A DNA stretch of 63,045 nucleotides, taken from Methylacidiphilum caldifontis. GTDB taxonomy: Bacteria > Verrucomicrobiota > Verrucomicrobiia > Methylacidiphilales > CAMAQI01. The translations under genes were made by a program, and so were the position numbers. A model generated the notes under the pieces. The model ran no database searches. It was given only the letters and a program-made list of their open reading frames with translations, and was not told the origin of the DNA. The stretch is from the NCBI GenBank assembly GCA_945877805.1, contig CAMCSM010000005.1, forward strand, positions 1 to 63,045, read 5' to 3'. Position 1 is the first letter of the stretch. Every line of letters begins with the position of its first letter. Positions 8,810-29,611 of the stretch are shown in pieces.

Positions 8810-8987
8810 TGATAAGTCCTTGGTATTAAGTTACTTACCTCGTAAGAAAAAGAAACGTTCGGCAAGAAAAGGAAGGAATAGAGTCTTTTACCGGCAATCA
8901 TTGCCAGTATTCATTAAATGCTCAAATAACCTTTTAGAGATCGATTTGAACTTCATGAAACCGAAAAAAAGGCGTTTTTAATCTACT

Positions 8988-9521
8988 TCATTTCGGCTCT
9001 TGCTTCCCCCAAGATTCAGTCAAAGTTTTATGGTTCTCTTGTATGGTTTGCCCAGAGAAAACATCCCAATTTTCTGAGAACCCCAGTGGGTCTGAAGCTC
9101 GAATCCGAAACCGCCTCATTTTTGTATCAGCGGGAGGAGTTTTTCTAGTTCTGACCCAGTAGGCATGTTGCTCTCGGACATAGATTGAAACGTAAATGCT
9201 TGGCACGATAAAAAACTTCGGCAACTCCTTGACCCCATTTAGTGCAACGAAACAATAAAATAAATTAGGGTCCTGAATTGTCTCATGCTTTTGACTCATT
9301 GCCCATGAGTGGCAAGGTTCATCGGCAAAAAGAGCTTCAGTCCGAGTTCGCTGATCTGTCGTTTTGACCTCAACTTTGAAAAGCTGACTCAAGAGAGAAT
9401 TTGCCACTAGAATATCAACGCCCTTGGTATTCCCAAGGGTAAGCGTGGCAACATAGCCACGCTGTACAAGTTGTGCTAAAGTATAAAATTCGCCTGTTAG
9501 ACCCGTTTGAGAATTTTCCAT
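8988..9521 (-). CDS. Small PD-(D/E)xK-type nuclease-like protein
   Basis: 'GEFYTLAQLVQRGY..GNTKGVDILV..FKVEVKT' gives a D...E-x-K arrangement. The start lies 2 nt after the stop of the giant helicase gene. Confidence 0.55.
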   Translation of the reverse strand: MENSQTGLTGEFYTLAQLVQRGYVATLTLGNTKGVDILVANSLLSQLFKVEVKTTDQRTRTEALFADEPCHSWAMSQKHETIQDPNLFYCFVALNGVKELPKFFIVPSIYVSIYVREQHAYWVRTRKTPPADTKMRRFRIRASDPLGFSENWDVFSGQTIQENHKTLTESWGKQEPK

Positions 9522-9523
9522 AT

Positions 9524-12500
9524 TTAGAAAACCTTCAAGAGTTCTGCAATCACGGCAAGATTTCCTTCATTTTCATCATCAAGTTCGATGGGAGCGTAAT
9601 CCAAATTGATCGGCTTGAGGATAATTTTGGAGTGTTCCCAACCTTCATCCGTAGTTCTTTTTTCGCTCTGATAACGTTTAAGTGTGTATTGACCAAGCCC
9701 ATCCGGATCTTGGATTGAGGCGTGATAAACGAGCAGGTCTTTTCCCTGTCTACTGCCAATACCAGGGGGTCCAAAAAGACACCATGATCCATCGGGAACT
9801 TTTGGTTCCATCGACTTTCCGGTGACTCGAGCGATAAAATACCCGTCTCGAATCGAAGTTCCTTCCGGAGGAATAACCCAATGTTTCGCTTCTTCAAATG
9901 ATTTAAGGTCTGACCCCATTTCAGCACCCCAAGTTCCGGCTGCAATAACGAGGTCTTCAAAAAGCGGAAGACAATTGCGAAACGCTTTCCGGTCCGATTC
10001 TGGAACGAGTGCAAAAGGAATAGGTTGAGAGCGATCAAAAATCTCCGAGTCCATTTTCGAAGGAGCACTTTCATTTGCGAACCAATCATTTCTCTTCACT
10101 ACAATTTCTTTTAAATCAGAGCGTTCGAGATAACGAGCTAACAGTCGAAAGTGCTTTCGCATCGCTTCAGGGTCATGGAGTTCATGAGCGGTGATCGAGA
10201 GGACTTCCCAATCCATTTCCCTTAATTGTGTTCGTATGATTTGATCTTTTGCTGCAGTTTGTGGGTTTCCATGAAGATGACTGCTTAACCCATCTAGATA
10301 GAGCGCCACAGATCGAAGATCTTCGTCTTCAGGTCTGAAAATGGCATCAGGTGTTGTCGTTCCTCTCCCAGTGCCAAGATGAAGTTGTTCCTGCCAAGAG
10401 GCCTCTGGAAAGCCCGCAGAGAGAAGAAGTTGACGAAGTCGGCGTTCGGCGGCGTTTACAGGGGCAAAATTATCTTGAGGAACTTCACCATGACTTTGGA
10501 GTATTGGAATCGTTCGTAGTTCTGTCAGTGAGCCTGCTGAACAGCTCAGGAAAGACTGAGCTCGGTGTCGATCGAGGTGAGGATGGTAAAACGAATTTCG
10601 ATACGTTTGAAGGCAGTCTGAACAGGATGCTTGGCATCCCGAGGGACAATCCTCGGTAATTGAAATTGCTTTTGCCTTTACCTCTGGAAATCGTTCGATC
10701 AGTTGCTCCAAGAGTCCTGATCCTCCGGGCATTGGATCGACGAGGTATGCGGTGACTTTGTCGTTTTCCATGTGTCCCATGACAACGAGTTGGAGATCTT
10801 CTTGTGCCATTTCTAACGTGCTGGCTGCGGCAAAGCGAATCGATTCTAAAACGCTATAGGCCTCTGTTTGATCGGAGAGATTCGGAAATTTAATAACATC
10901 AGCAACGAGGTCCGTATGCAGGGCTACTTCATCCGCAGTCTCACGCTGATCATTGCCACATCGTTCATGATGACCTTTTTTGAAATTTACCTTTTGGGCA
11001 TCAGAAGCGATCGGAGAGACGCTATCCCCACAAACAGAGCAAATGAGGTATCCAAAATTAATTCTTTTTTGAATTTCTGAATTAGATCCGACGTTCGCCA
11101 TCCGTAAATGCTGTCCCTTTAAAAAATGAATTTCTTGAGAGCCCCATAAGAATGCCTTCCCCCCCGAGTGACGGGACCGCTCCAATCCAAGAACAGCAAC
11201 CCCCATTTGAAAGCGATAGTCCTCTTCATCCGAAATTTGTGAGATATGAACTAGGTCGACATCCGTTAAGGGAAGCGAAGGTAAGGTTCTCGAAGTCGGA
11301 GTGCCTGAATGCCCTTGATCGACTTCACGTATTGCACTTTTACCCACTGTTACTTCTAACACGCAAACATCTCTCTCCTCTGCGGGTTGAAGTTGATAGC
11401 GCCGACTAACGAAGCGATGTCCATTGGCATAAATTAAGTTTCCTGGAACATATTCTCGAAGAGCCAAAAGCGGGGGACGGGGAAGTTCTAGTTCGCCAGA
11501 GTTGCCGGATTCCCAAAAAGGAATCTCTGCTGACCCCATAATCGAACCACGCTCTAATCCATATCCTGGAAGAAATCCCTCGAGGGCAAGTACGCTGTAG
11601 GTGACGGTCTCATCTTGACCCTCCCCTTCGCTTCGGCCTCGCTTCATCTCTCCCTTGATTCTTTTGATATAACGTTCGCAGCGCCGACGAATCGCTTCAT
11701 CTCCTGGATCAAGCGTTCCTGTTTGGCGTTGGAGATCATTGAGACGAGTTACCGTTTGATGAGACCAATTCAAACGACGTTGAAGCCGTTTCATCACGAG
11801 AAGGAGTTGGTCGACAAAACTGTCGATCGAAGAGGAAAGTAGTTTTTCTTCGATCACTTCGGAATCTTCTTTCGGCCAGCCTGCTGAAAAAACATCTAAA
11901 ATATGGTCTAGTATTTCTTGCTTGTGATCTTGAATTGATCTCCTCAATGGGGATAAGTCAGACAAAGTCGATCGAAGTTCATTTCCATCAAAAAGCCATG
12001 ATCGTACAGTTTTTGGAAAAGCGGCATCCAAAATTAGAGCAAGGGAGGGGGCATTCTGTGCCTTTTGATATAAACGACTGATAATCGTGGCATGGATATG
12101 TCTTCGCACCATCAGCGGATTAGAAAGATTGAAGACCGGCGCATCGACGCGTCCTGCCAGTAATTTTTCGGGGTGTAAGAAGTAAGAGCGATCATGACTC
12201 ACATCACGACAATAGGTGACATTCACCGCCATGCGATTTCGTCGACCCGCTCGACCGACCCGTTGCCAGTAGTTCGCTGGAAGTGGAGGAACATTTCTCA
12301 TCAGCACCGCATCAAGGGCTCCAATATCAACCCCCATCTCGAGAGTTTGGGTGCAGACAAGGGTATTTACGGCTTTTGATTTTATATCCTTAAACCAGTT
12401 TTCGATCTTTTCTCGGCGAGTATGAGGGACCATCGCCGTATGTTCTTCAGGACGGATGAGCTCATAATTTTGATCGAGCAACCGAAGATTATAATCATCG

Positions 12501-15430
12501 GAGTTCTCGGATTGAAATTCAAGAATCCCACTACATCGATAAACAGGACAAAGACTTTTCGGAGTCTTTCGGGTCATCCGACGACTACATCGTTTACATC
12601 TCCAGACTCCCTGACCGGGAACTAACTCTAATAAATTAGAGTCAACTTGGGAAAGACCAGATTGTTCCGGCAGTGATTTTCCCTTTGCGCCGAGAAGGTT
12701 TACAGGGACAAGCCATTTAAACTCTTGAAAAAAATGAAGAAGATCAAATAGAAATGGACTGAGATCATCCTCTTCAACTCCCCACTTTCGAACGGCTTGT
12801 TTAATATAAGTCGAACCCGTGGTTCCCTGCCATTGAATGACATAAGAATCTTTGTCTGATGCTTCACGCGACATCTTTGTCCCCTTGGGAGGATCCATAT
12901 CGGGAAGATAGCCATTTTGAATCTCTGAATCTCCGTGATTCCAGAACTTGCTGAAAGTTTTATGAACAGGATCGAGGAGAACCTTTTGTCTTCTTAAATA
13001 GTCAAGAATGCTCGCGGCCCCATCACAGACTTCATCCGGTGAGAGTTTTAGTTTTCGAGAGGCTTGAATGATAAAGGGTAAATGGGGAGTAAGACCTTTG
13101 TAATCGACTCTCATTCGACCCCAAGGTTCTAGTCCGAGAATTTGTCGGGGAGCCATCGTGATTTCACGAAGAATGGTCATTCGAAGAAATTTCTCCCGCT
13201 CTTTGGTGTGATTCATTTGAGCGTTCGCTGGAGCGACCCTCCAGACCTCGGGTAAAAGAGCATGAGAAAGACTCTCCTCTTTTTCAAATAATTGAGAGAG
13301 TGTGAGGGTCAAGTCTCCAACGGAGATCGGTCCTTTTTTTAATTCATCCGCAATCAATGACCTTAATCGAAATCGTCTCGCGTGATCTCTCATCCAACCG
13401 GATTGAAAGGCGGCATCTTGGCGGTTGTCGCAAAAGATCAAGAGTCTTTGGGGATCAAGATGATTGATCATGTCCTGAGCAAGCACATGGACGTCGGCAA
13501 CAGCAGTGGTTCGAACAGGACGAGCGGGCTCCCGGTAGCCAGCTCCCACGCGCCGCCCGTTTGCATCGCAGGTGAGGCAACGACTTAATACACCAGGATT
13601 CTCCTCTTTTGTCTGAATGGAATACAATGCAACCAGGGGATCGGGTCTTCCGCAATGTCCACATTGAGTTACTTTTTGATCATGAAAAGTCCCACAATAT
13701 CGACAGAAAAAAACAGGTGCGACTTTTGATTCGGGAATTTCTTCGCCTGAGACAAGTGAATCCACTAAGACACAACGGAGTCCGCTTTTCGCTTTTTCCA
13801 ATGGCTCCCAGTAACGGCTTTTTCCTGAGGCTTGCCCTCCTCCAAGAACTTGAGAGGTATGATGAAAATCCCGATGGTGACTTGAGAAGTAATGTTGCCC
13901 GCAAGTCGTACAAGTGGAAACAGCCAATCGAAATAAACCCTGATTTTCTTCATGAAGCTCCGCTGAAAAATGAAGCTTAAGATCATCGCCTGCTCCCGGA
14001 AAGGTAACGGTCGCTCCTCCGATTCCACGCATGAAGGCATGAACAACCGGGCGGAGTAACGGTCGATTCTCTTGGGAGGCCATTGCTCCGAGAATGAGCC
14101 AAGAAAGAACCTCTTCCTCCGTGGTTTCTCGTTTAAGTGCCAGTCCAAGTTTTTCAGTCGTCTCATGAAGGGGAAGCGGCTTTTCCAACAGTTGAGCGAG
14201 TTGATAAACCTCTTCAGACTGAGAAAGACCCTGATAGAGATCTTCCATGAAAGAGGCTTTTTTTACGAGAGTCCGGCCGCTTAAAGCAGTAAAGGCATGA
14301 CGAATCGTCTCTTCAGTTCCATCGACGGCAAGAACGCACTGTTCAAGAGCCTCCGAGCAATTTTTTGGTGCTGCTGAAATCGTTCGTCCAAGGGGCCAGG
14401 TTTGTGCGACATAGGACTCTGCAACGGTTGTGACTTTATCAATGGCAACTCCAAAGAAACGACTTGCAAATCGTTTGGCTGCATGGGGGTCTTTTGGGTC
14501 AACAATCGTCGCTGAAGTCGCAATACAGGTGGTGTTTTCCGGACTTTTTTCACAAAATCGAAGTAAGCGTCGAATGAGGCAAGCGGTCTCAGCCCCTTTT
14601 GCTCCGGTGAAAGTATGAGCTTCATCAAAGACTAAAAAATCAAGTCGAGCATTCGTAAATAGTTCGACATCCGTCTGGCGAGTGAGAAGGAGCTCCAATT
14701 GGTTTACGTTGGTTAAAAGAATCCGGGGTTGCTTTCCCGCTTCACGCATTTCTTCCCGAGAACAAAGCTCCTCAGCTGGATAAACGGTTTCGCCTGACTC
14801 TCGTTTCTGGGCCTCTTCCACCGCCTTCTCATAATCAGCACGCGAGGATCCCGGAGATAAGCGTTTTCCTGCGACATCCCCTTTTTTTCCAGGAGTCTTT
14901 CCGACATACATTCCAAAAGAAATTCCAGTTCCCGCCAATAAGCCCCTTAATCGTAACAGCTGATCTTCGGCTAAGGAGTTCATCGGATAAACTAAAACAG
15001 CGGAGATTCCCGACGCAGCTCTTGAATCGCGAAGGTCAAGGCAACGACTAATAATCGGATAAAGAAAGCATTCCGTCTTTCCTGATCCCGTTCCCGTCGA
15101 GATCAAGGTTGTTTTGCCGGATTGAATCGCCCGAATGGCCTCCTCCTGATGTTGATAAACGTGCTGAATGGAGGAGGGAATACGATCGCGAAGGAGAGGA
15201 TGAAGTATTTTTTCTTCAATCAACTTTTTGACCTCGCACCCCTGTTGAAAGGGACGACTTAAGGTGAGGTAAGGCCCCTTTAAAAGCGGTGTCGATCTTG
15301 TTTTGGTCAACGAAAGTAATTCCCTCATTTGAATATCCAGTCGGGGATCGGCAAAAGGATAGGCCGTAAGTTGGTAGCGTAAAAAACTGCCGACGACACG
15401 GTCGGTGAAAGCAATTGGATTTAAGGACAT
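9524..15430 (-). CDS. 1968-aa DEAH-box helicase + DUF1998 (DruE/DrmAB/MrfA-like) fused to a Vsr/DUF559-like endonuclease domain and a C-terminal LexA-type S24 peptidase domain
   Basis: Helicase: motif I 'STGTGSGKTE', motif II 'VFDEAHTF', motif VI 'QRVGRAGRR', several CxxC pairs. DUF1998-type: 'LEGFLPGYG', 'DPMPGGSGLLEQL', 'CPSGCQASCSDC'. Nuclease-like: 'TPDAIF..ALYLDGLSSHLHG..KDQIIRTQL..WEVL'. S24: 'LVIAAG', 'VTGKSMEP', 'YTLKRY'. Confidence 0.85.
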   Translation of the reverse strand: MSLNPIAFTDRVVGSFLRYQLTAYPFADPRLDIQMRELLSLTKTRSTPLLKGPYLTLSRPFQQGCEVKKLIEEKILHPLLRDRIPSSIQHVYQHQEEAIRAIQSGKTTLISTGTGSGKTECFLYPIISRCLDLRDSRAASGISAVLVYPMNSLAEDQLLRLRGLLAGTGISFGMYVGKTPGKKGDVAGKRLSPGSSRADYEKAVEEAQKRESGETVYPAEELCSREEMREAGKQPRILLTNVNQLELLLTRQTDVELFTNARLDFLVFDEAHTFTGAKGAETACLIRRLLRFCEKSPENTTCIATSATIVDPKDPHAAKRFASRFFGVAIDKVTTVAESYVAQTWPLGRTISAAPKNCSEALEQCVLAVDGTEETIRHAFTALSGRTLVKKASFMEDLYQGLSQSEEVYQLAQLLEKPLPLHETTEKLGLALKRETTEEEVLSWLILGAMASQENRPLLRPVVHAFMRGIGGATVTFPGAGDDLKLHFSAELHEENQGLFRLAVSTCTTCGQHYFSSHHRDFHHTSQVLGGGQASGKSRYWEPLEKAKSGLRCVLVDSLVSGEEIPESKVAPVFFCRYCGTFHDQKVTQCGHCGRPDPLVALYSIQTKEENPGVLSRCLTCDANGRRVGAGYREPARPVRTTAVADVHVLAQDMINHLDPQRLLIFCDNRQDAAFQSGWMRDHARRFRLRSLIADELKKGPISVGDLTLTLSQLFEKEESLSHALLPEVWRVAPANAQMNHTKEREKFLRMTILREITMAPRQILGLEPWGRMRVDYKGLTPHLPFIIQASRKLKLSPDEVCDGAASILDYLRRQKVLLDPVHKTFSKFWNHGDSEIQNGYLPDMDPPKGTKMSREASDKDSYVIQWQGTTGSTYIKQAVRKWGVEEDDLSPFLFDLLHFFQEFKWLVPVNLLGAKGKSLPEQSGLSQVDSNLLELVPGQGVWRCKRCSRRMTRKTPKSLCPVYRCSGILEFQSENSDDYNLRLLDQNYELIRPEEHTAMVPHTRREKIENWFKDIKSKAVNTLVCTQTLEMGVDIGALDAVLMRNVPPLPANYWQRVGRAGRRNRMAVNVTYCRDVSHDRSYFLHPEKLLAGRVDAPVFNLSNPLMVRRHIHATIISRLYQKAQNAPSLALILDAAFPKTVRSWLFDGNELRSTLSDLSPLRRSIQDHKQEILDHILDVFSAGWPKEDSEVIEEKLLSSSIDSFVDQLLLVMKRLQRRLNWSHQTVTRLNDLQRQTGTLDPGDEAIRRRCERYIKRIKGEMKRGRSEGEGQDETVTYSVLALEGFLPGYGLERGSIMGSAEIPFWESGNSGELELPRPPLLALREYVPGNLIYANGHRFVSRRYQLQPAEERDVCVLEVTVGKSAIREVDQGHSGTPTSRTLPSLPLTDVDLVHISQISDEEDYRFQMGVAVLGLERSRHSGGKAFLWGSQEIHFLKGQHLRMANVGSNSEIQKRINFGYLICSVCGDSVSPIASDAQKVNFKKGHHERCGNDQRETADEVALHTDLVADVIKFPNLSDQTEAYSVLESIRFAAASTLEMAQEDLQLVVMGHMENDKVTAYLVDPMPGGSGLLEQLIERFPEVKAKAISITEDCPSGCQASCSDCLQTYRNSFYHPHLDRHRAQSFLSCSAGSLTELRTIPILQSHGEVPQDNFAPVNAAERRLRQLLLSAGFPEASWQEQLHLGTGRGTTTPDAIFRPEDEDLRSVALYLDGLSSHLHGNPQTAAKDQIIRTQLREMDWEVLSITAHELHDPEAMRKHFRLLARYLERSDLKEIVVKRNDWFANESAPSKMDSEIFDRSQPIPFALVPESDRKAFRNCLPLFEDLVIAAGTWGAEMGSDLKSFEEAKHWVIPPEGTSIRDGYFIARVTGKSMEPKVPDGSWCLFGPPGIGSRQGKDLLVYHASIQDPDGLGQYTLKRYQSEKRTTDEGWEHSKIILKPINLDYAPIELDDENEGNLAVIAELLKVF

Positions 15431-16101
15431 AACGGAATCTCCATTTGTAAGTGAGGTCGAGCGGAATCATTCAGCGCACCCACTAATTGATCCATGTCGG
15501 TGGCAGGTGAAAGGGTACTTGATTTTAAATGTTCTTCTCGAACTCTTCGAGCATGAAGCACGGCTTGAGGAATTTTTGGAATGAGCGAACCCGTTGGAAC
15601 GGCGTTTTTCTCATACTCAGGATAATATCGGCGAAGTTCCCGTTTCGTCGCCTCGTAATCTTGAAATGACTTAGTGGTGTACGTTTCATGAAGAAGGAGC
15701 CAGTACTCAAAACAGGGACGTGAGAGAGCAACGTTAATTTTTTCCCTCTTTGCCAAATCAAGAGCCTGTTTCAGAACCGATTCCTTTTCCTTTGTTTCGA
15801 TTTCAGAGTCCAAGACACACCACACTTCATCAAAAGCCAATACTTCAGAGCTCGCTTTGCGAGCCTCCTTTCTACGTTGGGTTCGTAAATCGATCGCCTC
15901 TTTTACGAGCGTCATCGGATCTGTTCCCTTAGCTTGTAGAATTTCAATGGTAGAGAGCTTTAATCGATCTCTTAATCCCTCGAGATATTGCGGTTCCGTC
16001 TCCTCTCCCTCGGTGACGATGAGAAAGGTCTTTCCACTTGAGGCTGTTTTTGAATTTCTTCCTCGTCTGAAATTTCCGATCTCACGATCGTAGTTGCTCA
16101 T
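15421..16101 (-). CDS. RloB-family (AbiLii-like, TOPRIM-like) protein
   Basis: 'FLIVTEGEETEPQYL', 'FDEVWCVLDSE', 'ALSRPCFEYWLLLH'. ATGA overlap with the upstream ATPase gene and a 10-nt overlap with the helicase start. Confidence 0.85.
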   Translation of the reverse strand: MSNYDREIGNFRRGRNSKTASSGKTFLIVTEGEETEPQYLEGLRDRLKLSTIEILQAKGTDPMTLVKEAIDLRTQRRKEARKASSEVLAFDEVWCVLDSEIETKEKESVLKQALDLAKREKINVALSRPCFEYWLLLHETYTTKSFQDYEATKRELRRYYPEYEKNAVPTGSLIPKIPQAVLHARRVREEHLKSSTLSPATDMDQLVGALNDSARPHLQMEIPLCP

Positions 16102-17393
16102 GAGCGGATCAAGGCTCCATTGCTTTTGAAAAAGGGCACCGCTCCATAACGACCGCCGAGATACCCACGCTCCAATGACTCTTGGGCGCGTGGCTTATAA
16201 TCGGTTAATGGATAGAGGAAGGAATCCCCCTCTGGGCGTTTCTCAGAAAACCAGATCTGATCTCGACGAAGGGTATTGGTATTCAAGAGGGTCGGATTGT
16301 GGGTCGTAAAAAGAATCTGCGCCCCTTTCGGATTTGTCTTCGGGTCAAAAAGAAGTTTTAAGAGAGCTTTGACTAAAAGCGGGTGAAGACTGTTTTCCAG
16401 TTCATCGATGCAAACGGTGTAGCCTCCCTCGAGAATATCGAGCCATGGACCGCACAGCGCATAAAACCGACGGGTTCCCGCGGATTCCTCGCTCGCATCC
16501 ATCGAAACGAGTTTATCCCCCTTACCGGTATGCTTTAATTGAACGGTGGTGGAGGTGGGATCGGCAAGCTTTCCGCTGGCCTCGAGTTGAGAGAAAAGGG
16601 CAGGAGGGAGATCTCGTCGAACCTCTTCGAGAGGAATCTTTTTTTCATAAACGTCGACCCCTGCAATTCCAAAATCGGCCTCTCGAATCATTTCAATGAC
16701 TTTTTGAAACAAGTCTGGGCGTGTTTTATGAAGTCCATTGGTATAGGAAGGTAAGAACTGTCGATCGGCATCTAGGGCGATAAAACGGAGCTGATTGGGA
16801 AACCATCCATAGACATCGAAGAGTTGGGGGTGATTCAGTTGAGCCCCGGTTGAAAGAAAAAGAGCATTATCCCGTGTCATCTCCCGGAGCTTGCTGTCAT
16901 AACGAAAATTTTCGGTCGGAGGACTCCATTGATACTTGTCACCTTTCCAAAGACGCTCAAACCAGACTTGTGGTTTTCCTTTTGGATAAACGATGAGAAC
17001 TTCCTCCGTGACCCGTTCTGAAGTCAGGGAAAACCGATAGAGATGGCGCACCCCTTCTAAAATGAATGTGACTTCAAAAGAGGAGGGTTCGTGGGTCGAT
17101 TGTTCATCGAGTCGAAAAGGCATTACTCCAATCGTCTGTCCAGGAAGGAGTTTTGAAAAAGAGCCCTCGACGAAGCTCTTCATATACTCGATTGCAGCGA
17201 TAAAATTACTTTTTCCCGAGGCATTGGCCCCATAGATCGCCGCCGCTTTCACGATTTTTCCGTTTTTAAATCCTGGAATATCGACCGCGATAAAGTTCTC
17301 AGGCAACGTTTGATCGTAGTTGCTGGCGACCATGTTGAGGATCGCTTCTTCACGAAATGACCGGAAGTTTTTAACTCGAAATTCGATTAACAT
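16098..17393 (-). CDS. ABC/AAA_21-type ATPase (AbiLi / RloA-like)
   Basis: 'FRVKNFRSFREE', Walker A 'GANASGKSN', 'CIDELENSLHP' and 'TTHNP' form an OLD/AbiL-type ABC ATPase signature. Confidence 0.85.
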   Translation of the reverse strand: MLIEFRVKNFRSFREEAILNMVASNYDQTLPENFIAVDIPGFKNGKIVKAAAIYGANASGKSNFIAAIEYMKSFVEGSFSKLLPGQTIGVMPFRLDEQSTHEPSSFEVTFILEGVRHLYRFSLTSERVTEEVLIVYPKGKPQVWFERLWKGDKYQWSPPTENFRYDSKLREMTRDNALFLSTGAQLNHPQLFDVYGWFPNQLRFIALDADRQFLPSYTNGLHKTRPDLFQKVIEMIREADFGIAGVDVYEKKIPLEEVRRDLPPALFSQLEASGKLADPTSTTVQLKHTGKGDKLVSMDASEESAGTRRFYALCGPWLDILEGGYTVCIDELENSLHPLLVKALLKLLFDPKTNPKGAQILFTTHNPTLLNTNTLRRDQIWFSEKRPEGDSFLYPLTDYKPRAQESLERGYLGGRYGAVPFFKSNGALIRS

Positions 17394-17397: not shown

Positions 17398-18084
17398 TTA
17401 AAGTAGTAATTTTATTGGGTAATGTCGAGTTTTTTGCGTATTTTTCGTTAAAAAGCCTCTTTCGACTAAATCGGCGACCCAGTGGGCGGCGGTATCAAAC
17501 CGGATCCCCTCATGGTATTCTGTCCCTGTGCCTTGGCTCATCCCCTGCATAAATTTTTCGGGCGTAGAAAATTGGGTCCCAGAATAGCTGCTCTTCCAGT
17601 AAAGGTTCACAAACTCCAGATCATTCATCGCCACGATTTCATTTTTAAACTCCCAAGGGTCTTTGGGGTCTAGGGAAAATTCGTAGCGGATCGGGAATTC
17701 CTTCCGAACATCGACCGCCATCGACTGAGGGTTCGCAAAATCTCCCGTCACGATGAGCTCGCCGACAGGCTCTGGGTAAAAGTAAATCCAGCCCTCGATC
17801 TCCTCTTCGGAGCGGGTGATCAGAGGGGCCTTTTTTCGGCAGTAGGAGAAAGGGTGACCCTCAATGATATCGATCTGCCTTAAAGTTTCATCGCTGACTT
17901 CGTAGAGCTCGCCGATCACAGGGCGAAAGGGGATTTCTTGGACGCAGAAAGGGATCCCGCGAGCGAACAGTGCGTAGGGGTACTTCGTCCTGGCTTCTCC
18001 CAAGAACTTTGAATTCATGAGCTGGCTATGCAGGGCAAAGCCCCGGCGCAGGGTTCCGTAGCAAAAAAGGGGGGTTGTTTTCAT
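17398..18084 (-). CDS. Gamma-glutamylcyclotransferase (GGCT/AIG2-like) domain protein with an unknown ~110-aa C-terminal domain
   Basis: 'LFCYGTLRRG', 'VIGELYEV', 'IDIIEGHPFSY' (catalytic-Glu context) and 'IEGWIYFY'. I do not recognise the C-terminal half. Confidence 0.75.
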   Translation of the reverse strand: MKTTPLFCYGTLRRGFALHSQLMNSKFLGEARTKYPYALFARGIPFCVQEIPFRPVIGELYEVSDETLRQIDIIEGHPFSYCRKKAPLITRSEEEIEGWIYFYPEPVGELIVTGDFANPQSMAVDVRKEFPIRYEFSLDPKDPWEFKNEIVAMNDLEFVNLYWKSSYSGTQFSTPEKFMQGMSQGTGTEYHEGIRFDTAAHWVADLVERGFLTKNTQKTRHYPIKLLL

Positions 18085-18107: not shown

Positions 18108-19481
18108 TTAAAAATATCTTTCATTCTCAATTTCTGGAAGCGTCAGCTCCTGCTGAACCGAGGAAAGATGTGACCATGCTCCTGATTTTAGTTTAGCGAT
18201 CAATGCTTCAGATGCATATTTTTCAAGCCACCTCGAGTTTAGCCCAGAATCGACCGCTTCTGCGGCAAGCTTATAGACCAGTGTCATATTCACCTCCATT
18301 TCAAGATCCTTATGAATTTTTATGATCCCTTGTTCAAATTCGCATTGAGTTGGTGGGTCGAGGTGGATCCAAGATGAATTAAAACGGTTTAAAAGCTCCT
18401 CAGGGATTGAGTTTTGTTTTTTAATGGGAGTCGTTTCTTGAGTTGAGCCAAATCCGACCGTAATCTTTTTTTGGTGAAGCGTCTGCCAGGTTCCGGCCCC
18501 GATGATCATAAAATTATTTTGAAACCGTTTTTGATTTTCACGAGACCATCCTGGGAATACTTGGGTGCGGCAATCTAAAAGAGCATAAACTTCTTGCTGA
18601 ATATTTTTACACCAGTCGGTCTCTGCGGAAAATTTATCAAGCTCATCGATCATTAAAACCCCTTTTCCTTCGAGGTCGATAAACTCATTGATGACTTCAA
18701 GAGTTGATTTTCCTCCCTTTCCGCCGGTGACGATCCAAGAGCCGCTTTCTAAAGATATAAAGGGAAGCGACCTCTTGTTGGCAAATGCCTTACAAAGAGT
18801 TGTTTTACCAACCCCGGAAGGGCCAATAATCAGTGGAATAGGGCGAGTCCAAATCCCCCCCGGGCGGATATTGAGTTTTTTAATTTGATAAAAATCCTCA
18901 AGAGTCTGCATCGCTGCTGTCTGCGAGTTTGTTAAGACAAGATTGCGGGTATTTTCATTATTTTCCTCTGGTGAGGGCGCAACAAGGCTAATAAAGGGGT
19001 TTTCATTTTGGGTTAATTTAACCCAAGTGGTGAGGTCTTCAGGATGCGGTACAGTTTTTGTGATGATGTAGCAGATTTTTGCGTAAGGGAGCATCTCAGC
19101 AATCTTGGACTTGTCCGAAAAACTTAAATATCGCTTATTTTCATCCGTGGATTGCTTAATCATTGTAAATAGAAGCTCAATCAGCAGATCAATCTTATGC
19201 ATCGCTTCAGGGAGATAAGTTTTATGAGTTTGATAGCAAAATAGCTTTAAAGCCAAAAATTCGACATAGCGAGATTCTGCGATTTCCTGAAGCTTTTTCA
19301 GGAACTTCGCGATACGAGGAGGCGCATCAATAGACTCTGGAGGAAAATTCCAGTGAATATCGCAATTTTTGCATTCGTCCCAAGCGTCCGAAACTTCTTT
19401 TACATAATTCATTGCTTGAAGTTGAAACGCCTTTTGGATTTCATAATTTGATTTTGATCCAACTTCGATATTTAGCTTCAT
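18108..19481 (-). CDS. AAA+ ATPase with an unknown ~210-aa N-terminal domain
   Basis: Walker A 'GPSGVGKTT' and Walker B 'VLMIDELDKF', followed by a classic AAA+ spacing. Confidence 0.75.
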   Translation of the reverse strand: MKLNIEVGSKSNYEIQKAFQLQAMNYVKEVSDAWDECKNCDIHWNFPPESIDAPPRIAKFLKKLQEIAESRYVEFLALKLFCYQTHKTYLPEAMHKIDLLIELLFTMIKQSTDENKRYLSFSDKSKIAEMLPYAKICYIITKTVPHPEDLTTWVKLTQNENPFISLVAPSPEENNENTRNLVLTNSQTAAMQTLEDFYQIKKLNIRPGGIWTRPIPLIIGPSGVGKTTLCKAFANKRSLPFISLESGSWIVTGGKGGKSTLEVINEFIDLEGKGVLMIDELDKFSAETDWCKNIQQEVYALLDCRTQVFPGWSRENQKRFQNNFMIIGAGTWQTLHQKKITVGFGSTQETTPIKKQNSIPEELLNRFNSSWIHLDPPTQCEFEQGIIKIHKDLEMEVNMTLVYKLAAEAVDSGLNSRWLEKYASEALIAKLKSGAWSHLSSVQQELTLPEIENERYF

Positions 19482-19586: not shown

Positions 19587-20255
19587 TTAAGGGAATGGAT
19601 GGGGGAGTCGTATATTTTTGTAATCTTGATAAAATTGGAGAAATTTATTCGATTGATCCTGAAGCATGCTTAAAGTTGCTTCGGCTTTAAGCTGATGCTC
19701 ATACCGGTACCCTGTTCCAAAATTCATCCCGCTTACTCCAAGATGCTCGAGATAGCAAATATCCGAAAAGCTCCCGATATGAATTTCGAACCCTTTAGCT
19801 TCTAATATCGATCTAAGTAGTGGATTATCGTATTGGTAGAGGACAACGCCTGATTCGCGACGATCAAACTCAAAAATCCAGTGATACTTTTTTTCAGTTT
19901 TAAAGAATTGGGCTGTGCTTTGTCCGATCTCTTCATCCGTGGATAAAAGGATATCAAATTCGCACCCCGCCTTTTGGAGAACATTTAGCAGGAGATGGAG
20001 GCCTAGCCGATCATCTACCCCCGTGGAACGAAGGATATCTCCCTCAACCTGAGGAGCGGTAATGGGGTTAACGGTGTCAATATGGGCAATTCCGAGAATC
20101 GAGGCATTAAAATCTTTAAAATAGTAGGGTCGGCCAGCCTCTGTATTTTTTTCAAAACCAAAGAGAGCTAGATAGGGATCGAGATCACCTTGAAATGCAA
20201 TGTCGATATTTTGAAGGAGATCACTAATGCTAACCGGAGAGATGTTTTTGTTCAT
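19587..20255 (-). CDS. Small M42/M20/M28-like metallopeptidase
   Basis: The metal-ligand pattern is 'AHIDTV' (H-x-D), 'GVDDRLG', 'STDEEIG', with later D and H ('SFSDI', 'YEHQ'). Confidence 0.6.
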   Translation of the reverse strand: MNKNISPVSISDLLQNIDIAFQGDLDPYLALFGFEKNTEAGRPYYFKDFNASILGIAHIDTVNPITAPQVEGDILRSTGVDDRLGLHLLLNVLQKAGCEFDILLSTDEEIGQSTAQFFKTEKKYHWIFEFDRRESGVVLYQYDNPLLRSILEAKGFEIHIGSFSDICYLEHLGVSGMNFGTGYRYEHQLKAEATLSMLQDQSNKFLQFYQDYKNIRLPHPFP

Positions 20256-27254: not shown

Positions 27255-27839
27255 TTATGAGGCTCCCTTTGTTTCTTGTAAAATTTGCGCACCATACGCC
27301 GTTAGTCGATACCTTTGAAGTCGACTAGTCGGCTTATCGGGAATGGTGCGCTCCACGAACTTCAGCTCGACGAGACGTTGGATTTGTTTGTTGAGCTCCC
27401 CGGAGACCGTTTGGTGACCGAGCTTTTTCGCCAAATGGATCTTTCCTTCTTCCGCTTGACCCAAAAGAACGATCAACTTTGCCGCTAACCTCGACTCTAG
27501 CCGCGACTCTAGCCGTTCATCTCCGGATTGCGGCTCTCGACGGCTGGCTTGGATGGGTAGAGAAAGCACCTTTGGATGAACCGGAAGACGGATCACGAAG
27601 GAGAGTCGATCCTCATCCGTTTCAAATCGGGGCTTCGGTGACCCGTTCTCCTTCATCGCCTTGAGGATTTTTGGGATTCCCGTGGAACGCCCCTCCGTCA
27701 GGTCGAGTTCTTTGAGGAATTCGCCAATCCGACGATTTCGGTACCGTCGGGAAACCGCTTTTCCTGCCCTCAGATCACTCATTTGAATCGATCGATCAGG
27801 GTCGTTGAGCATTTCAAGGATGTTGAGAGGGAGTGGCAT
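27255..27839 (-). pseudogene. N-terminally truncated paralogue of the AlbA_2/HATPase_c_4/wHTH regulator (C-terminal 194 aa only)
   Basis: 'SRRYRNRRIGEFLKELDLTEGRSTGIPKI' aligns with 'SQIRNPVIARVFRELDLVEQWGSGIPGI' of the 492-aa protein. Both end with '..SRLQ(R/K)YR(L/I)..'. The AlbA_2 N-domain is missing. Confidence 0.6.
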
Positions 27840-27848: not shown

Positions 27849-28409
27849 TTAATGGGACATTAATTTTCTTACCCCTGAGACAAACACATTAAAACTTGCA
27901 GAACGATTACGGTCAGGGGTCATTTTTTTTGCAATCTCTGCTGCCCGAATCAATTTGGCCCGGGTTCCTGTTAACTCTTTTATCAGTTCTGAAGCATTTG
28001 TTAATTCATCAGGATTTCGTCGCATTAATCCTTTATAAGCGGAATGTCGTTTGGCATTTGGATATGCCTCCCCTACTGCATCTAGATCTCCAATAAACCA
28101 ACTTTCAAGCTCCTGACAGACGATTCGAATTAAGAACTCGGGCGAAGTTTCTGGAACTCTGGTTTTTAGCTGTTGTTTTAAGTTGGAGCAATTAGATCCA
28201 TCATTATCTCGCAAAATGATGAACCGATCATCAGGCTTCCTCCATTCTCGCATCTTTTTCGGAAACGAGGACTCTAAATCAGATTTACCTTTGTGATGGA
28301 TCAGTATCCAATGCTGAAACTCTAAAAATTCTGGGAAAAGCTTTGGAAATAACTCTCGAAGAGTTATCCCCATGGATTCCTCTTCCGTCATAAATATGAT
28401 ACGGCTCAT
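27849..28409 (-). CDS. DUF4276-type (TOPRIM-like) protein
   Basis: 'IIFMTEEES' supplies an acidic strand and 'FIILRDNDGS' a DxD, plus 'CQELESWFIGDLDA'. ATGA-type 4-nt overlap with the upstream ATPase. Confidence 0.75.
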   Translation of the reverse strand: MSRIIFMTEEESMGITLRELFPKLFPEFLEFQHWILIHHKGKSDLESSFPKKMREWRKPDDRFIILRDNDGSNCSNLKQQLKTRVPETSPEFLIRIVCQELESWFIGDLDAVGEAYPNAKRHSAYKGLMRRNPDELTNASELIKELTGTRAKLIRAAEIAKKMTPDRNRSASFNVFVSGVRKLMSH

Positions 28410-29611
28410 GTCACCAGTAATGATTTGCTGTTAAAAAGACCTTGGTTCCATAAATACCCGGGGAGATCTCCTTTCTTGTAAAGGCGAACCAAGAGAGGGT
28501 GATCGGAAGCATGATAGACAGTAGATTTGCCGTTTTCCTTTTCGAGCCAATAAATACAGTCCAGTGGCACAGAATTTAAAAAATCGGGCGAGTGAGAAGA
28601 GACAAATACCTGTCCCCCCCGCTCGGAGTATTGTAAAAATTCCTCCGCTAAAACACTCATTAACTCGGGATAAAGCTGATTTTCCGGTTCTTCAACACAA
28701 AGAATCGGATGTGGTTTTGGATCAGCCAATAAAACCAGATAAGCAAACATCTTAATCGTTCCATCGGAAACATTTTTGTCGATAAAAGGATCCACAAAAG
28801 CACCATCTTTGTATCTCATCAACAAGCGACCATCATCCGTGACAGTAACCGCAATGTCTGCGACACCAGGCACTCGCTCCAACATTTTTTTCTTAATGGA
28901 CTCGAAAATACCAGGATGTTTTTCGTATAAATAGCGAGCGGTGGAAGGGAGATTATCTCCGCTTGGTGAGAGATGGAGGGAATCTTCCTCCTCTTTGTCT
29001 CCGCGAGCACTGCTGATATGAAAGTCGGAAATATGCCAGTTCTCAATTAACTGGCGAAATGCGGAGGCGGCTTTAAACCGTTCAAATTGGCCTAAACCTT
29101 TTACGGCAAGTGTTTCAGGAGAATCCAATTTTTGAGGTTCACGCGTTAACTCAGAATCTTTTTTATCAAAATCCTCTTCGTTCGTAATCGCATAGCCTTC
29201 TCCGTTCTTAAAATCAATAAAATGGAAAGGAGATCCATGGGGTCCACGTTTATAGCGAAGGATTTCACGTTTAACGATGGGACCATTGCCTTGGTCATTT
29301 CCAATTTCAAGACGATAAGTCACCAGTCGATTGGTGCCAGCGATATCCAATCGAAACTGAATTTCGATCTCTAAATCTTCATTTTCATGACCACGACTAA
29401 GGACTTCTTTTAATCCATTGCGGCCACCTTCAATATTTAAAGCGGCCCTTACATTTTTTGCCAGGCAGTTTTTAAGGAAAGCAAATACTCTAAACAGGGT
29501 TGTTTTGCCTGTACCATTGCGCCCAACAAAAACACAATAGGGAGGAACCTCTGTAATTTCAATATCACAGAGGGCCTTAAAGTTTTTGACTCGGATCGTT
29601 TCAATATTCAT
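28406..29611 (-). CDS. ABC/AAA_15-21-type ATPase partner of DUF4276
   Basis: 'IRVKNFKAL', Walker A 'GRNGTGKTT', 'CVEEPENQLYP', 'SSHSP'. Confidence 0.8.
   Translation of the reverse strand: MNIETIRVKNFKALCDIEITEVPPYCVFVGRNGTGKTTLFRVFAFLKNCLAKNVRAALNIEGGRNGLKEVLSRGHENEDLEIEIQFRLDIAGTNRLVTYRLEIGNDQGNGPIVKREILRYKRGPHGSPFHFIDFKNGEGYAITNEEDFDKKDSELTREPQKLDSPETLAVKGLGQFERFKAASAFRQLIENWHISDFHISSARGDKEEEDSLHLSPSGDNLPSTARYLYEKHPGIFESIKKKMLERVPGVADIAVTVTDDGRLLMRYKDGAFVDPFIDKNVSDGTIKMFAYLVLLADPKPHPILCVEEPENQLYPELMSVLAEEFLQYSERGGQVFVSSHSPDFLNSVPLDCIYWLEKENGKSTVYHASDHPLLVRLYKKGDLPGYLWNQGLFNSKSLLVT

What the first reader, a model, noticed from the sequence alone, without database searches (positions are those of the whole stretch)
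8988..15430. Orphan DruE/DrmAB-like giant helicase with extra nuclease and peptidase domains plus a small PD-(D/E)xK partner
The 1968-aa protein combines a DEAH helicase core ('GTGSGKTE', 'DEAH', 'QRVGRAGRR') containing a long Cys-rich insertion. It also has a DUF1998-type module ('LEGFLPGYG', 'CPSGCQASCSDC') and a Vsr/DUF559-like endonuclease motif ('PDAIF..YLDG..H..D..R..L..W.V'). It ends in a LexA-type S24 domain. DUF1998 helicases are hallmark components of Druantia (DruE) and DISARM (DrmA/DrmB) and of MrfA repair. No DruA-D/H/M, drmC/D/E or methylase genes accompany this one. The only dedicated-looking partner is a 177-aa PD-(D/E)xK protein that starts 2 nt after the helicase stop. This may be a compact two-gene helicase-nuclease system not matching any described subtype.
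Basis: partly seen in the sequence, partly recalled or inferred. Interest (0 to 1): 0.82.

Follow-up and report, generated by a model that had tools for sequence, protein, structure and literature searches.

The report
Orphan ARMADA helicase-nuclease with LexA-like switch
The giant gene is an intact ArmC, the helicase-nuclease of the recently described ARMADA type I anti-phage system, here without its two usual partner genes; the small neighbouring nuclease is not its partner, and the helicase ends in a LexA-like self-cleaving module that the ARMADA description does not mention.

Summary
There is a 1968-aa ORF (9524-15430, minus strand) with a DEAH helicase core, Cys-rich inserts, DUF1998/MZB, a Vsr-type nuclease motif and a C-terminal S24 domain. 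A 177-aa PD-(D/E)xK gene starts 2 nt after its stop.

The helicase belongs to a described family, ArmC of ARMADA type I (Bell et al. 2025 preprint). Homologues 52% identical are listed by name in that paper's Table S1. Of 83 related loci, 54 carry the giant Eco57I/PglX-like methylase ArmB upstream and at least 25 carry the SNF2 helicase ArmA. Neither gene is on this 63-kb contig, so "orphan" is correct.

The 177-aa nuclease is absent from all 85 related loci (duplicates included) and lies next to unrelated genes elsewhere. The two-gene system is therefore not supported. That junction is conserved in the closest relatives.

Two things appear undescribed. The S24 module keeps LexA's Ala-Gly cleavage motif and Ser/Lys dyad, and it recurs on unrelated restriction enzymes. 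The armB-armC junction is a slot for other defence systems.

The parts
9524..15430 (-). armC: 1968-aa YprA-family helicase-nuclease of ARMADA type I, intact ORF
   Evidence: ORF; Pfam; PADLOC DruE-type hits. Homologues at 52% identity are listed as ARMADA Type I helicase. ArmB lies upstream in 54 of 83 related loci and ArmA in at least 25.
14615..15094 (-). RecA1 core from Walker A (GTGSGKT, aa 113-119) to DEAH (aa 269-272)
   Evidence: One search gives the motif positions. Both motifs are invariant in the 12-sequence alignment A1.
13556..13933 (-). Cys-rich insert (aa ~500-625) with CxxC at 507, 576, 590 and 618: predicted zinc-binding module inserted at the start of RecA2
   Evidence: CxxC positions. 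All eight Cys are invariant in A1. Weak zinc-ribbon hits. The equivalent module is described for ARMADA and Druantia helicases in PMC12458937.
12239..12457 (-). RecA2 / Helicase_C (aa 992-1064) including motif VI QRVGRAGRR
   Evidence: Pfam Helicase_C E=4.8e-12; motif position.
10610..10834 (-). MZB / DUF1998 zinc-binding domain (aa 1533-1607), four-Cys cluster 1595-1606
   Evidence: Pfam PF09369 E=1.2e-8; Cys residues invariant.
10121..10468 (-). Vsr-type PD-(D/E)xK nuclease domain (aa ~1655-1770); candidate catalytic residues D1695, D1713, H1720, D1729
   Evidence: These residues are invariant in A1 and A2. The region aligns to E. coli ArmC 1723-1806, its 'active Vsr' region (blastp 8e-4, hhalign 6e-4). 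The AF2 model shows an alpha/beta core with pLDDT about 90. There is no Pfam hit and hhalign against E. coli Vsr itself is weak. The Vsr assignment for type I ArmC comes from PMC12458937 Table S2.
9527..10021 (-). LexA-like S24 autopeptidase module (aa 1804-1968): linker with cleavage motif I-A-A-G (A1830 A1831 G1832 = nt 9935-9943), Ser1873 and Lys1918
   Evidence: Pfam Peptidase_S24. The top 30 Foldseek hits are LexA, lambda CI and UmuD. S1873 aligns to LexA S119 and K1918 to LexA K156. AAG, S and K are invariant in 30 S24-bearing ArmC proteins and 91-100% conserved in 45 heterologous fusions.
15421..16101 (-). RloB-like / AbiLii gene (226 aa); its stop overlaps the armC start by 10 nt
   Evidence: Pfam RloB 1.9e-39; PADLOC AbiLii 4.9e-21. 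The same 10-nt overlap with armC occurs in L001 and L006.
16098..17393 (-). AAA_21 ATPase / AbiLi gene (431 aa); with the RloB-like gene it forms an AbiL-type pair embedded next to armC
   Evidence: Pfam AAA_21 8.6e-38; PADLOC AbiLi 1.7e-94. It is 64-67% identical to the gene at the same position in L001, L002 and L006.
8988..9521 (-). Free-standing 177-aa PD-(D/E)xK nuclease (I-Ssp6803I / Hjc-like). It is adjacent to armC but is not a conserved partner
   Evidence: Searches give fold and catalytic residues. It is absent from 85 armC loci and lies in varied contexts.

Best explanation
The 1968-aa gene is an intact armC, the YprA-family helicase-nuclease effector of an ARMADA type I defence system. 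It belongs to the large sub-branch of that family that ends in a LexA-like S24 module.

It lies at the edge of a defence island more than 40 kb long. Core metabolism genes end at 7837, and a tRNA-Ser-like fragment lies at 8768-8811. In relatives the operon reads armA (SNF2) - armB (Eco57I/PglX-like methylase of about 1650 aa) - variable cargo - armC. Here armA and armB are missing from the whole contig. Only the cargo and armC remain, the cargo being an AbiL-type AAA_21/RloB pair. The downstream 177-aa gene is an independent small PD-(D/E)xK nuclease of a family that turns up in many defence islands.

Inferred mechanism, by homology with MrfA, DruE and E. coli ArmC:
- The DEAH motor loads on single-stranded or forked DNA of a replicating phage and translocates.
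- The OB-CON-DUF1998 'canopy' and the zinc modules hold the strand.
- The C-terminal Vsr-type domain cuts it.
- The S24 module is predicted to cleave its own chain at Ala1831-Gly1832, using Ser1873 and Lys1918. As in LexA, CI and UmuD, this would most likely happen in response to RecA-ssDNA filaments, so it would switch the enzyme when DNA damage or phage replication intermediates appear. The direction of the switch is not known: it could activate the enzyme, or it could be an SOS-linked shut-off that spares host DNA ('restriction alleviation').

All four genes are needed in E. coli ARMADA II. ArmC alone is therefore unlikely to give full ARMADA defence unless its partners are encoded elsewhere.
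For: Shown here:
- Family membership is supported.
- ArmA and ArmB are the only recurrent neighbours in an unbiased clustering of 1063 neighbour ORFs.
- ArmA, ArmB, ArmD-type RelE and DruH are absent from the window by tblastn.
- The AAA_21-RloB-armC block and its 10-nt overlap are shared with L001, L002 and L006, where ArmC is 70-72% identical.
- The armB-armC gap is at least 1.5 kb in 33 of 54 loci. Of 20 cargo proteins sampled, 18 match known defence families.
- All helicase, Vsr and S24 catalytic residues are retained.
- The S24 fold is confirmed.

From the literature: the ARMADA architecture, the Vsr assignment, and the finding that all four genes are essential in type II (PMC12458937).

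Inferred: substrate, polarity, RecA dependence, and the consequence of cleavage.
Against: - No experiment exists for ARMADA type I or for any S24-bearing ArmC.
- The Vsr domain is not detected by Pfam, and its match to E. coli Vsr is weak.
- The cleavage loop is modelled at low confidence (pLDDT below 50 for aa 1830-1843).
- The contig is only 63 kb, so armA and armB may exist elsewhere.
- An intact 5.9-kb ORF argues against a useless remnant. That fits a partner-independent or re-partnered role as well as it fits a recent loss.
Confidence: 0.7

Rival explanations
1. ArmC has been re-partnered. In this lineage the AAA_21/RloB pair and ArmC work together as a three-gene module, with an OLD/PARIS-like ATPase-Toprim sensor plus a helicase-nuclease. 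The module therefore no longer needs ArmA and ArmB.
For: The three genes form a conserved block with an identical 10-nt RloB/ArmC overlap in the window, L001/L002 and L006. The AAA_21 proteins are 64-67% identical.
Against: In L001, L002 and L006 the block still follows ArmB. AbiL is an autonomous two-gene system in PADLOC. The same slot holds about 30 unrelated cargo sets in other loci. Only 3 of 83 other loci have this pair.
Confidence: 0.15
2. ArmC is a recently orphaned remnant. It is still intact but gives no defence, because ArmA and ArmB were lost when the island was rearranged.
For: All four genes are essential in E. coli ARMADA II. ArmA and ArmB are absent from 47 kb upstream and 9 kb downstream of armC. 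The window's upstream genes (GGACT, a 457-aa AAA+ protein, a 222-aa protein) occur next to ArmC in no other locus.
Against: There is no frameshift or stop in 5.9 kb, and every invariant catalytic residue is kept. About 15 other loci with full 10-kb flanks also lack ArmB nearby, so a solo or distant arrangement may be tolerated.
Confidence: 0.3
3. One reading: a compact two-gene system made of the giant helicase and the 177-aa PD-(D/E)xK nuclease.
For: The gap is only 2 nt and the genes share a strand. The small protein is a real PD-(D/E)xK nuclease with an intact catalytic motif. In two other contexts a homologue sits next to a restriction-type enzyme: a Mrr-helicase in L086 and an MmeI-type enzyme in L095.
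Against: The small gene is present in 0 of 85 ArmC loci. Its roughly 170-member family lies beside different neighbours each time. ArmC already carries its own nuclease. The closest ArmC relatives have unrelated downstream genes.
Confidence: 0.05
4. It is a Druantia type III-like DruE that has lost DruH, or a DISARM class 1 with fused DrmA-DrmB.
For: The best PADLOC models are DruE3 and DruE1 (E=1e-113 and 1e-107). The best solved relative is a 2108-aa DEAD/DEAH helicase, 9tu7 (E=8e-66), which is probably a DruE (that identification is inferred). Relatives have DrmD-like and DrmMI-like neighbours.
Against: PADLOC 2.0 predates ARMADA, so it has no ArmC model. The nuclease is Vsr-type, not PLD. 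There is no DruH in the window and none is a recurrent neighbour. DrmA models score only 56 bits, and there is no DrmC. The authors' own table calls the homologues ARMADA type I.
Confidence: 0.04
5. ArmC cooperates with the adjacent type 1 BREX system, on the same strand 7 kb upstream. BREX's PglX methylase would stand in for ArmB, and ArmC would supply the nuclease that BREX lacks.
For: ArmA and ArmB are described as BrxHII-like and PglX-like. A complete set of BREX type 1 genes lies at 22598-40930 on the same strand.
Against: None of the 83 other ArmC loci has BREX genes within 10 kb. Two plus-strand genes separate the two gene sets. Defence islands juxtapose systems by chance.
Confidence: 0.04
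6. It is a housekeeping MrfA/YprA-type DNA-repair helicase.
For: It shares the YprA core and the MZB domain. PDB 6znp (YprA) is hit at 1.3e-33.
Against: It sits in a defence island. It is about 2.6 times larger than MrfA and has ARMADA/Druantia-specific inserts. Its flanks vary between genomes. No MrfB is present.
Confidence: 0.01

Closest known systems
ARMADA type I (ArmA-ArmB-ArmC; Bell et al. 2025 preprint, PMC12458937). It is predicted only, never tested.
   Same: The helicase is 46-72% identical to proteins whose contigs or accessions the authors list as ARMADA Type I helicase. It shares the zinc modules, OB-CON-DUF1998 and C-terminal Vsr-type nuclease. Relatives have SNF2 and giant Eco57I-like methylase genes upstream.
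   Different: ArmA and ArmB are absent from this contig. The protein has an extra C-terminal S24 module that the paper's text and held supplements do not mention. An AbiL-type pair is wedged against the armC start.
ARMADA type II of E. coli (ArmABCD; tested in PMC12458937 and PMC13463889)
   Same: It has the same overall helicase-Vsr effector plan. ArmC aligns in several segments between residues 13 and 1754, including the Vsr motif (phmmer 199 bits).
   Different: Identity is only about 23-31%. E. coli ArmC has extra EEP and second Vsr domains and no S24. Type II has ArmD (a RelE-GajB helicase). S24-bearing ArmC loci never have an ArmD-like gene downstream: 0 of 34, against 7 of 33 for S24-less loci.
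Druantia type III DruE (helicase-nuclease effector; 2026 preprints and PDB 9tu7)
   Same: It is a sister clade of YprA helicases with similar inserts and gives the best PADLOC and PDB matches. It is proposed to act on ssDNA-containing replication intermediates.
   Different: DruE has PLD nuclease domains and needs DruH. Here the nuclease is Vsr-type, there is no DruH, and there is an S24 tail.
LexA / lambda CI / UmuD (S24 self-cleaving proteins)
   Same: It shares the fold (Foldseek E=1e-6), the Ser/Lys dyad in register with LexA S119 and K156, and an 'LPL...(V/I)AAG' cleavage-site region.
   Different: The module is at the C-terminus of a 1.8-kaa enzyme instead of following a DNA-binding domain. 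RecA dependence and the effect of cleavage are untested.
AbiL (AbiLi/AbiLii), related to PARIS- and OLD-type ATPase-Toprim pairs
   Same: The upstream pair matches AbiLi (1.7e-94) and AbiLii/RloB.
   Different: It is embedded inside a remnant ARMADA operon and is translationally overlapped with armC.
I-Ssp6803I homing endonuclease / archaeal Hjc (PDDEXK_5-like)
   Same: The 177-aa protein shares the fold and the E...D...ExK motif.
   Different: It is not in an intron. It is free-standing in defence islands, and Pfam scores it below threshold (17.5 against 26.1 bits).

Membership tests
ARMADA type I | YprA-like helicase falling in the ARMADA I clade | tested here: met
   It is 52% identical over its full length to MBN2437725.1 and MFA5786294.1, both listed as 'ARMADA Type I helicase'. 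The contigs of L012, L070, L080 and L084 are listed too. No formal tree was built.
ARMADA type I | C-terminal Vsr-type (PD-(D/E)xK) nuclease fused to the helicase | tested here: inconclusive
   A PD / LDG..H / D..IR motif is invariant and aligns to the Vsr region of E. coli ArmC. There is no Pfam hit, and hhalign against E. coli Vsr gives a probability of 3%.
ARMADA type I | BrxHII/RapA-like SNF2 helicase gene (armA) in the operon | tested here: not met
   tblastn finds no hit in the 63-kb window with the L003 SNF2 protein or E. coli ArmA. The gene is present in at least 25 related loci.
ARMADA type I | PglX/Eco57I-like methyltransferase gene (armB) in the operon | tested here: not met
   tblastn finds no hit in the window with ArmB of L001, L003 or E. 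coli. The only Eco57I-type methylase is BREX PglX at 29676-34634. ArmB is present in 54 of 83 related loci.
ARMADA type II | ArmD (RelE-GajB helicase) immediately after armC | tested here: not met
   The gene downstream is the 177-aa nuclease. A GajB-like helicase exists 26 kb away at 41242-43392, with only 23% identity to E. coli ArmD over the helicase part.
Druantia type III | DruH partner and PLD nuclease domains in DruE | tested here: not met
   E. coli DruH gives no tblastn hit in the window. There is no PLD domain in Pfam.
DISARM class 1 | Separate DrmA and DrmB genes plus a DrmC PLD nuclease | tested here: not met
   The helicase and DUF1998 are in one polypeptide. DrmA models score only 56 bits. 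No DrmC is present.
Peptidase S24 (LexA-type autopeptidase) | S24 fold with Ser-Lys dyad | tested here: met
   Pfam scores 30.8 bits against a cut-off of 23.3. Foldseek hits LexA, CI and UmuD. S1873 and K1918 align to LexA S119 and K156 and are invariant.
Peptidase S24 (LexA-type autopeptidase) | Internal Ala-Gly (or Cys-Gly) cleavage site upstream of the catalytic core | tested here: met
   I-A-A-G at 1829-1832 is invariant in 30 ArmC proteins and 91-98% conserved in 45 other fusion proteins. It is preceded by 'LPL', as in LexA.
Peptidase S24 (LexA-type autopeptidase) | Actual self-cleavage, stimulated by RecA-ssDNA | not testable with these tools
   This needs biochemistry.
AbiL | AbiLi ATPase plus an adjacent AbiLii (RloB-like) gene | tested here: met
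   PADLOC gives AbiLi 1.7e-94 and AbiLii 4.9e-21. The two genes overlap by 4 nt.
PD-(D/E)xK nucleases (177-aa protein) | Restriction-endonuclease-like fold with D...(D/E)xK | tested here: met
   The AF2 model has pLDDT 91. Foldseek hits I-Ssp6803I at 5.8e-5, plus Hjc and EcoRV. D36, E51 and K53 are invariant.

The most novel reading that the evidence does not exclude
The LexA-like S24 tail may be a portable, self-cleaving control module that bacteria attach to DNA-cutting defence enzymes. Copies 40-49% identical, with the same Ala-Ala-Gly site and Ser/Lys dyad, end ArmC helicases, Type ISP and MmeI-type restriction-modification enzymes, McrC, a Res-type helicase and Schlafen-type helicases.

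If cleavage responds to RecA filaments, it would wire these enzymes directly to the SOS signal. That could arm them when phage DNA replicates. Alternatively it could disarm them while damaged host DNA is being repaired, which would be a built-in form of restriction alleviation.

Separately, ArmC without ArmA and ArmB might still act as a solo effector.
Probability: 0.4. Interest if true: 0.75.

Novelty: new variant of a known kind. Interest (0 to 1): 0.5.

Why it matters
The locus itself is an incomplete copy of a system that already has a name, so the 'new compact two-gene system' claim falls away. Three points are still worth a specialist's time.

First, a large branch of ARMADA type I effectors carries a LexA-type autopeptidase with its own cleavage site. 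The same module sits on several unrelated restriction enzymes. This suggests a direct, testable link between RecA/SOS signalling and control of DNA-targeting immunity, and possibly a protein-level answer to how such enzymes avoid killing a host whose DNA is being repaired. ARMADA type I has not been tested at all.

Second, the armB-armC junction is a slot that collects other defence systems, so it could be mined for new ones.

Third, PADLOC 2.0, which has no ARMADA models, matches this gene best to DruE. ArmC genes may therefore be labelled as lone DruE by tools of that generation.

Tried and rejected
- Promoter and terminator scan of 7800-21500: counts equal chance expectation, so it says nothing about operon structure.
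- phmmer of the last 328 aa against PDB sequences: no hit. The fold search was needed instead.
- Pfam on the isolated Vsr region, the Cys-rich insert and the coiled-coil region: nothing significant.
- hhalign of the Vsr-region profile against E. coli Vsr: only the D..R..L..GW.V segment aligns, with probability 3%.
- Rfam on the whole window: no family reached its threshold. The tRNA-like fragment scores 21.6 against 29 bits.
- Homologues of the upstream 457-aa AAA+ protein: only about 10 were found, none next to ArmC, GGACT or AbiL. This gives no evidence that it belongs with the helicase.
- EDL933 accession NC_002655 is not in the collection. Sakai NC_002695 was used for the reference ARMADA II and Druantia III proteins.
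- The representative search with the S24 module returned many truncated metagenomic ORFs. Only 45 hits with more than 150 aa of non-ArmC N-terminal sequence were counted as different architectures, and 10 of them were domain-checked.
- Literature searches for S24 fusions to defence or restriction enzymes found nothing relevant. This covers open-access text only and is not proof of novelty.
- The BREX-ArmC hybrid idea: no other ArmC locus has BREX nearby.

Full report
OBSERVATION

The two ORFs exist as described. One runs 9524..15430 on the minus strand (1968 aa). The other runs 8988..9521 on the minus strand (177 aa), and its ATG lies 2 nt after the helicase stop.

Pfam finds DEAD, ResIII, Helicase_C, MZB (the renamed DUF1998; residues 1533-1607) and Peptidase_S24 (1829-1962), all above their gathering scores.

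That string reads: a 222-aa protein (19587..20255), a 457-aa AAA+ protein (18108..19481), a GGACT-domain protein (17398..18084), an AAA_21 ATPase (16098..17393) and an RloB-like protein (15421..16101). The stop of the RloB-like gene overlaps the helicase start by 10 nt. PADLOC calls the last two AbiLi (1.7e-94) and AbiLii (4.9e-21).

WHAT THE HELICASE IS

PADLOC's best models are DruE3 and DruE1 (1.8e-113 and 7.6e-107), far ahead of DrmA (5e-16). A search of 5.8 billion proteins gave more than 3000 relatives. Most of the best 120 are about 1970 aa with the same DEAD, Helicase_C, MZB and S24 architecture, and they come from many phyla.

The genomic context settles the classification.
- In the first contexts read, a gene of about 1650 aa with an Eco57I domain lay upstream, and in one case an SNF2 helicase lay upstream of that. 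PADLOC scores that gene as type IIG/DrmMI-like.
- I fetched 80 loci from one-genome-per-species contigs.
- tblastn found the giant methylase in 58 of all 85 loci and the SNF2 gene in 37.
- An unbiased all-against-all clustering of 1063 neighbour ORFs found only these two families to be recurrent: 54 and 25 loci of 83. The SNF2 count is limited by the 10-kb flank.

This trio is ARMADA (ArmA SNF2, ArmB PglX-like methylase, ArmC YprA-like helicase with a C-terminal Vsr nuclease), defined by Bell et al. in a 2025 preprint (PMC12458937).

Membership is direct. Two homologues 52% identical to the window protein, both about 1972 aa and S24-bearing, are MBN2437725.1 and MFA5786294.1. Both are listed as 'ARMADA Type I helicase' in that paper's Table S1. 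So are the contigs of my loci L012, L070, L080 and L084.

Against the experimentally tested E. coli systems, fetched from strain Sakai, the window protein scores 199 bits to ArmC (type II) and 175 bits to DruE (type III). That is the pattern expected of a third lineage, type I, which lies between them.

No ArmC structure is solved. The best PDB relatives are a 2108-aa helicase, 9tu7 (E=8e-66), probably a DruE (that identification is inferred), and YprA/MrfA 6znp.

ORPHAN STATUS

tblastn with ArmA and ArmB from L001, L003 and E. coli finds nothing in the window. DruH also finds nothing. The window extends 47 kb upstream and 9 kb downstream of armC. The source contig is about as long as the window (63,073 nt).

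The closest relatives are L001/L002 and L006 (a Verrucomicrobiia MAG), with ArmC 70-72% identical. They read ArmB - AAA_21 - RloB - ArmC, with the same 10-nt RloB/ArmC overlap. The window therefore looks like that arrangement after ArmB, and presumably ArmA, was replaced by unrelated genes. The GGACT, 457-aa AAA+ and 222-aa genes occur beside ArmC nowhere else. The AAA+ family is rare and shows no link to ArmC.

The ORF shows no sign of decay. Every residue that is invariant across the aligned homologues is kept, including the Walker A, DEAH, motif VI, Cys-cluster, nuclease and peptidase residues.

THE SMALL DOWNSTREAM GENE

It is a genuine PD-(D/E)xK nuclease. The AF2 model has pLDDT 91.3. 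Foldseek's best hits are the homing endonuclease I-Ssp6803I (5.8e-5), the SPARDA nuclease domain, Hjc resolvases and EcoRV. E11, D36, E51 and K53 are invariant in 33 homologues.

It is not ArmC's partner.
- None of the 85 ArmC loci contains a homologue.
- The closest ArmC relatives have unrelated downstream genes.
- The roughly 170 members of its family sit next to something different in each of seven contexts read. These were a Mrr-helicase, an MmeI-type enzyme, a Schlafen-helicase island, IS elements, a radical-SAM cluster and an integrase island.

It is best seen as a small free-standing nuclease that frequents defence islands.

THE AbiL PAIR AND THE CARGO SLOT

Among the 54 loci with ArmB upstream:
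- 13 have ArmB abutting ArmC (gap under 300 nt);
- 8 have a gap of 300-1500 nt;
- 33 have 1.5-9.5 kb of unrelated genes in between. Almost every such set is unique.

I sampled 20 of these cargo proteins, and 18 match PADLOC models at E below 1e-5. The matches were DarG, AbiEi/AbiEii, type II methylases and a restriction enzyme, RmrA, HEC-01, HEC-03, HEC-04, MkoA/MkoB, PDC-S68, Drt1a, IetS, PDC-M26 and GajB-like.

The armB-armC junction is therefore a collecting point for other defence systems, and the window's AbiL-type pair is one such passenger. The ARMADA paper does not discuss this.

Whether the pair has become functionally tied to ArmC in this lineage cannot be decided here. I give that 0.15.

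THE C-TERMINAL MODULES

The nuclease. Residues 1692-1733 carry TTPD, YLDG..H.HG and D..IR, all invariant. This parallels Vsr's PD, HG..WH and D..D signature.
- The segment aligns to E. coli ArmC 1723-1806, the region its authors call the active Vsr domain (blastp 8e-4, hhalign 6e-4).
- The AF2 model gives a confident alpha/beta core there.
- Pfam does not detect it, and a profile comparison with E. coli Vsr itself is weak.

The peptidase. The last 165 residues are a complete LexA-type module.
- The model's best 30 structural matches are LexA, lambda CI and UmuD (E from 1e-6).
- Ser1873 and Lys1918 align with LexA S119 and K156.
- About 40 residues upstream lies 'LPLFEDLVIAAG'. This matches LexA's 'LPLVGRVAAG', in which Ala84-Gly85 is the self-cleavage bond (established LexA biochemistry, from my own knowledge).
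- The Ala-Ala-Gly, the Ser and the Lys are invariant in 30 S24-bearing ArmC proteins of 41-59% identity.
- The words S24, LexA and peptidase do not occur in the ARMADA paper or its held supplements.
- Among the genome loci, 45 of 83 ArmC genes carry the tail.
- An ArmD-like helicase follows none of 34 tailed genes but 7 of 33 untailed ones (Fisher p=0.005, not corrected for phylogeny).

THE S24 MODULE ELSEWHERE

An exhaustive HMMER search of 1.84 billion representatives with residues 1801-1968 found 1486 proteins, 768 of them at E of 1e-10 or better. Many are ArmC fragments.

However, 45 of the best 150 have more than 150 N-terminal residues with no similarity to ArmC, yet keep the linker, AAG (91-98%), Ser and Lys (100%). 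I domain-checked ten:
- P0262: a ResIII helicase.
- P0281 and P0269: Eco57I/MmeI-type methylase-TRD enzymes.
- P0299 and P0303: Type ISP enzymes.
- P0336: a Schlafen group-3 helicase.
- P0265: a restriction-endonuclease domain.
- P0294: McrC.
- P0282 and P0307: S24 only.

The tail is therefore a portable module on DNA-targeting defence enzymes. I found no description of this in the searchable literature. That search covers open-access text only.

MECHANISM

Shown here: the domain content, the conserved catalytic residues, the family and its context.

Inferred from MrfA, DruE and E. coli ArmC: an ATP-driven motor that engages single-stranded or forked phage DNA and cuts it with the Vsr-type domain.

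Inferred from LexA, CI and UmuD: self-cleavage at Ala1831-Gly1832, probably promoted by RecA-ssDNA filaments. This would detach the 137-residue peptidase core from the enzyme. I cannot tell whether that switches the enzyme on or off.
- On: the tail acts as an inhibitor or a dimerisation lock that is released by phage replication intermediates.
- Off: an SOS-linked shut-off spares unmodified host DNA made during repair, analogous to ClpXP-dependent restriction alleviation of type I enzymes (my own knowledge). The module's presence on single-chain restriction-modification enzymes makes this reading at least as attractive.

All four genes of E. coli ARMADA II are required for defence. I therefore expect ArmC alone not to give canonical ARMADA immunity.

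VERDICT

The sequence observation is sound. The proposed 'new compact two-gene system' is not supported.

The locus is an ArmA/B-less copy of ARMADA type I, with an AbiL passenger and an unrelated small nuclease next door. It counts as a new variant of a known kind because of the undescribed S24 switch and the partner-less configuration.

Interest is moderate (0.5). It comes mainly from the S24 module and the cargo slot, not from the original claim.

Noticed in passing
window 29676-34634 (-): The BREX methylase gene pglX is split in two. The N-terminal half is 32685..34634 (matches profile positions 1-614 of 1174). The C-terminal half is 29676..31451 (positions 621-1170). A complete Shedu gene, sduA (31453..32688; PADLOC 4.5e-159), sits exactly between them. 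It overlaps the first half by 4 nt and ends 2 nt before the second. This is one defence gene nested inside another.
   Followed up: partly
window 22598-40930 (-): A type 1 BREX gene set (BrxA, BrxB, BrxC, PglX, PglZ, BrxL) carries further passengers. These are a Schlafen/AlbA_2-HATPase_c_4 protein (34631..36109), a truncated paralogue of it (27255..27839) and a HEC-01 pair (27849..29611). The same AlbA_2/HATPase_c_4 family is also cargo in the armB-armC gap, or just upstream of armC, in six other loci (cluster 3).
   Followed up: partly
window 8768-8811 (+), inside the AT-rich gap 7838-8987: A sequence resembles the 5' half of a tRNA-Ser(GCU): acceptor, D arm and anticodon arm. It lies between the last core gene (lutC-like, which ends at 7837) and the first island gene. 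Rfam tRNA scores 21.6 bits against a threshold of 29, and ARAGORN finds no tRNA. It may be a remnant of the island's integration site.
   Followed up: partly
window 43910-44001 and 45966-46057: Two 92-nt direct repeats, 96% identical, flank an AbiEi/AbiEii pair (44478..45931). A partial third copy lies at 48423-48457. The AbiE cassette may have arrived as a discrete mobile unit.
   Followed up: no
related loci L001-L085, between armB and armC: The armB-armC junction holds highly variable cargo in 33 of 54 loci. The cargo includes DarTG, AbiE, type II RM, Mokosh, DRT1, IetAS and HEC systems. Unannotated genes in this slot, such as L007:8987-9994 and L074:8092-9939 (no PADLOC hit), are candidates for new defence genes.
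   Followed up: partly
proteins P0262, P0281, P0269, P0299, P0303, P0336, P0265, P0294: The same LexA-like S24 tail, 40-49% identical to ArmC's, ends Type ISP, MmeI-type, McrC, Res-type and Schlafen-helicase proteins.
   Followed up: partly
window 17398-19481 (-): A GGACT (gamma-glutamyl cyclotransferase-like) protein with a C-terminal extension of about 110 aa follows a rare AAA+ ATPase (457 aa; weak IetA-like PADLOC hits; only about 10 homologues in 5.8 billion proteins). Both lie directly upstream of the AbiL pair. Their function is unknown. They may be another defence cassette.
   Followed up: partly
L005 13383-13532: In L005 the ArmC ORF ends at 1793 aa, but similarity to the window's linker region continues for about 40 codons past the stop (tblastn reaches query residue 1835). 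This looks like a decayed S24 tail, which suggests that the module is gained and lost within the closest subclade.
   Followed up: no
window 21463-22563 (+) and 41242-43392 (-): Two more defence candidates lie in the island. One is a PDC-S11 protein (1.6e-119). The other is a 716-aa UvrD/GajB-like helicase with an unassigned N-terminal region of about 200 aa. It is distantly similar to E. coli ArmD (23% identity) but lies 26 kb from armC.
   Followed up: partly
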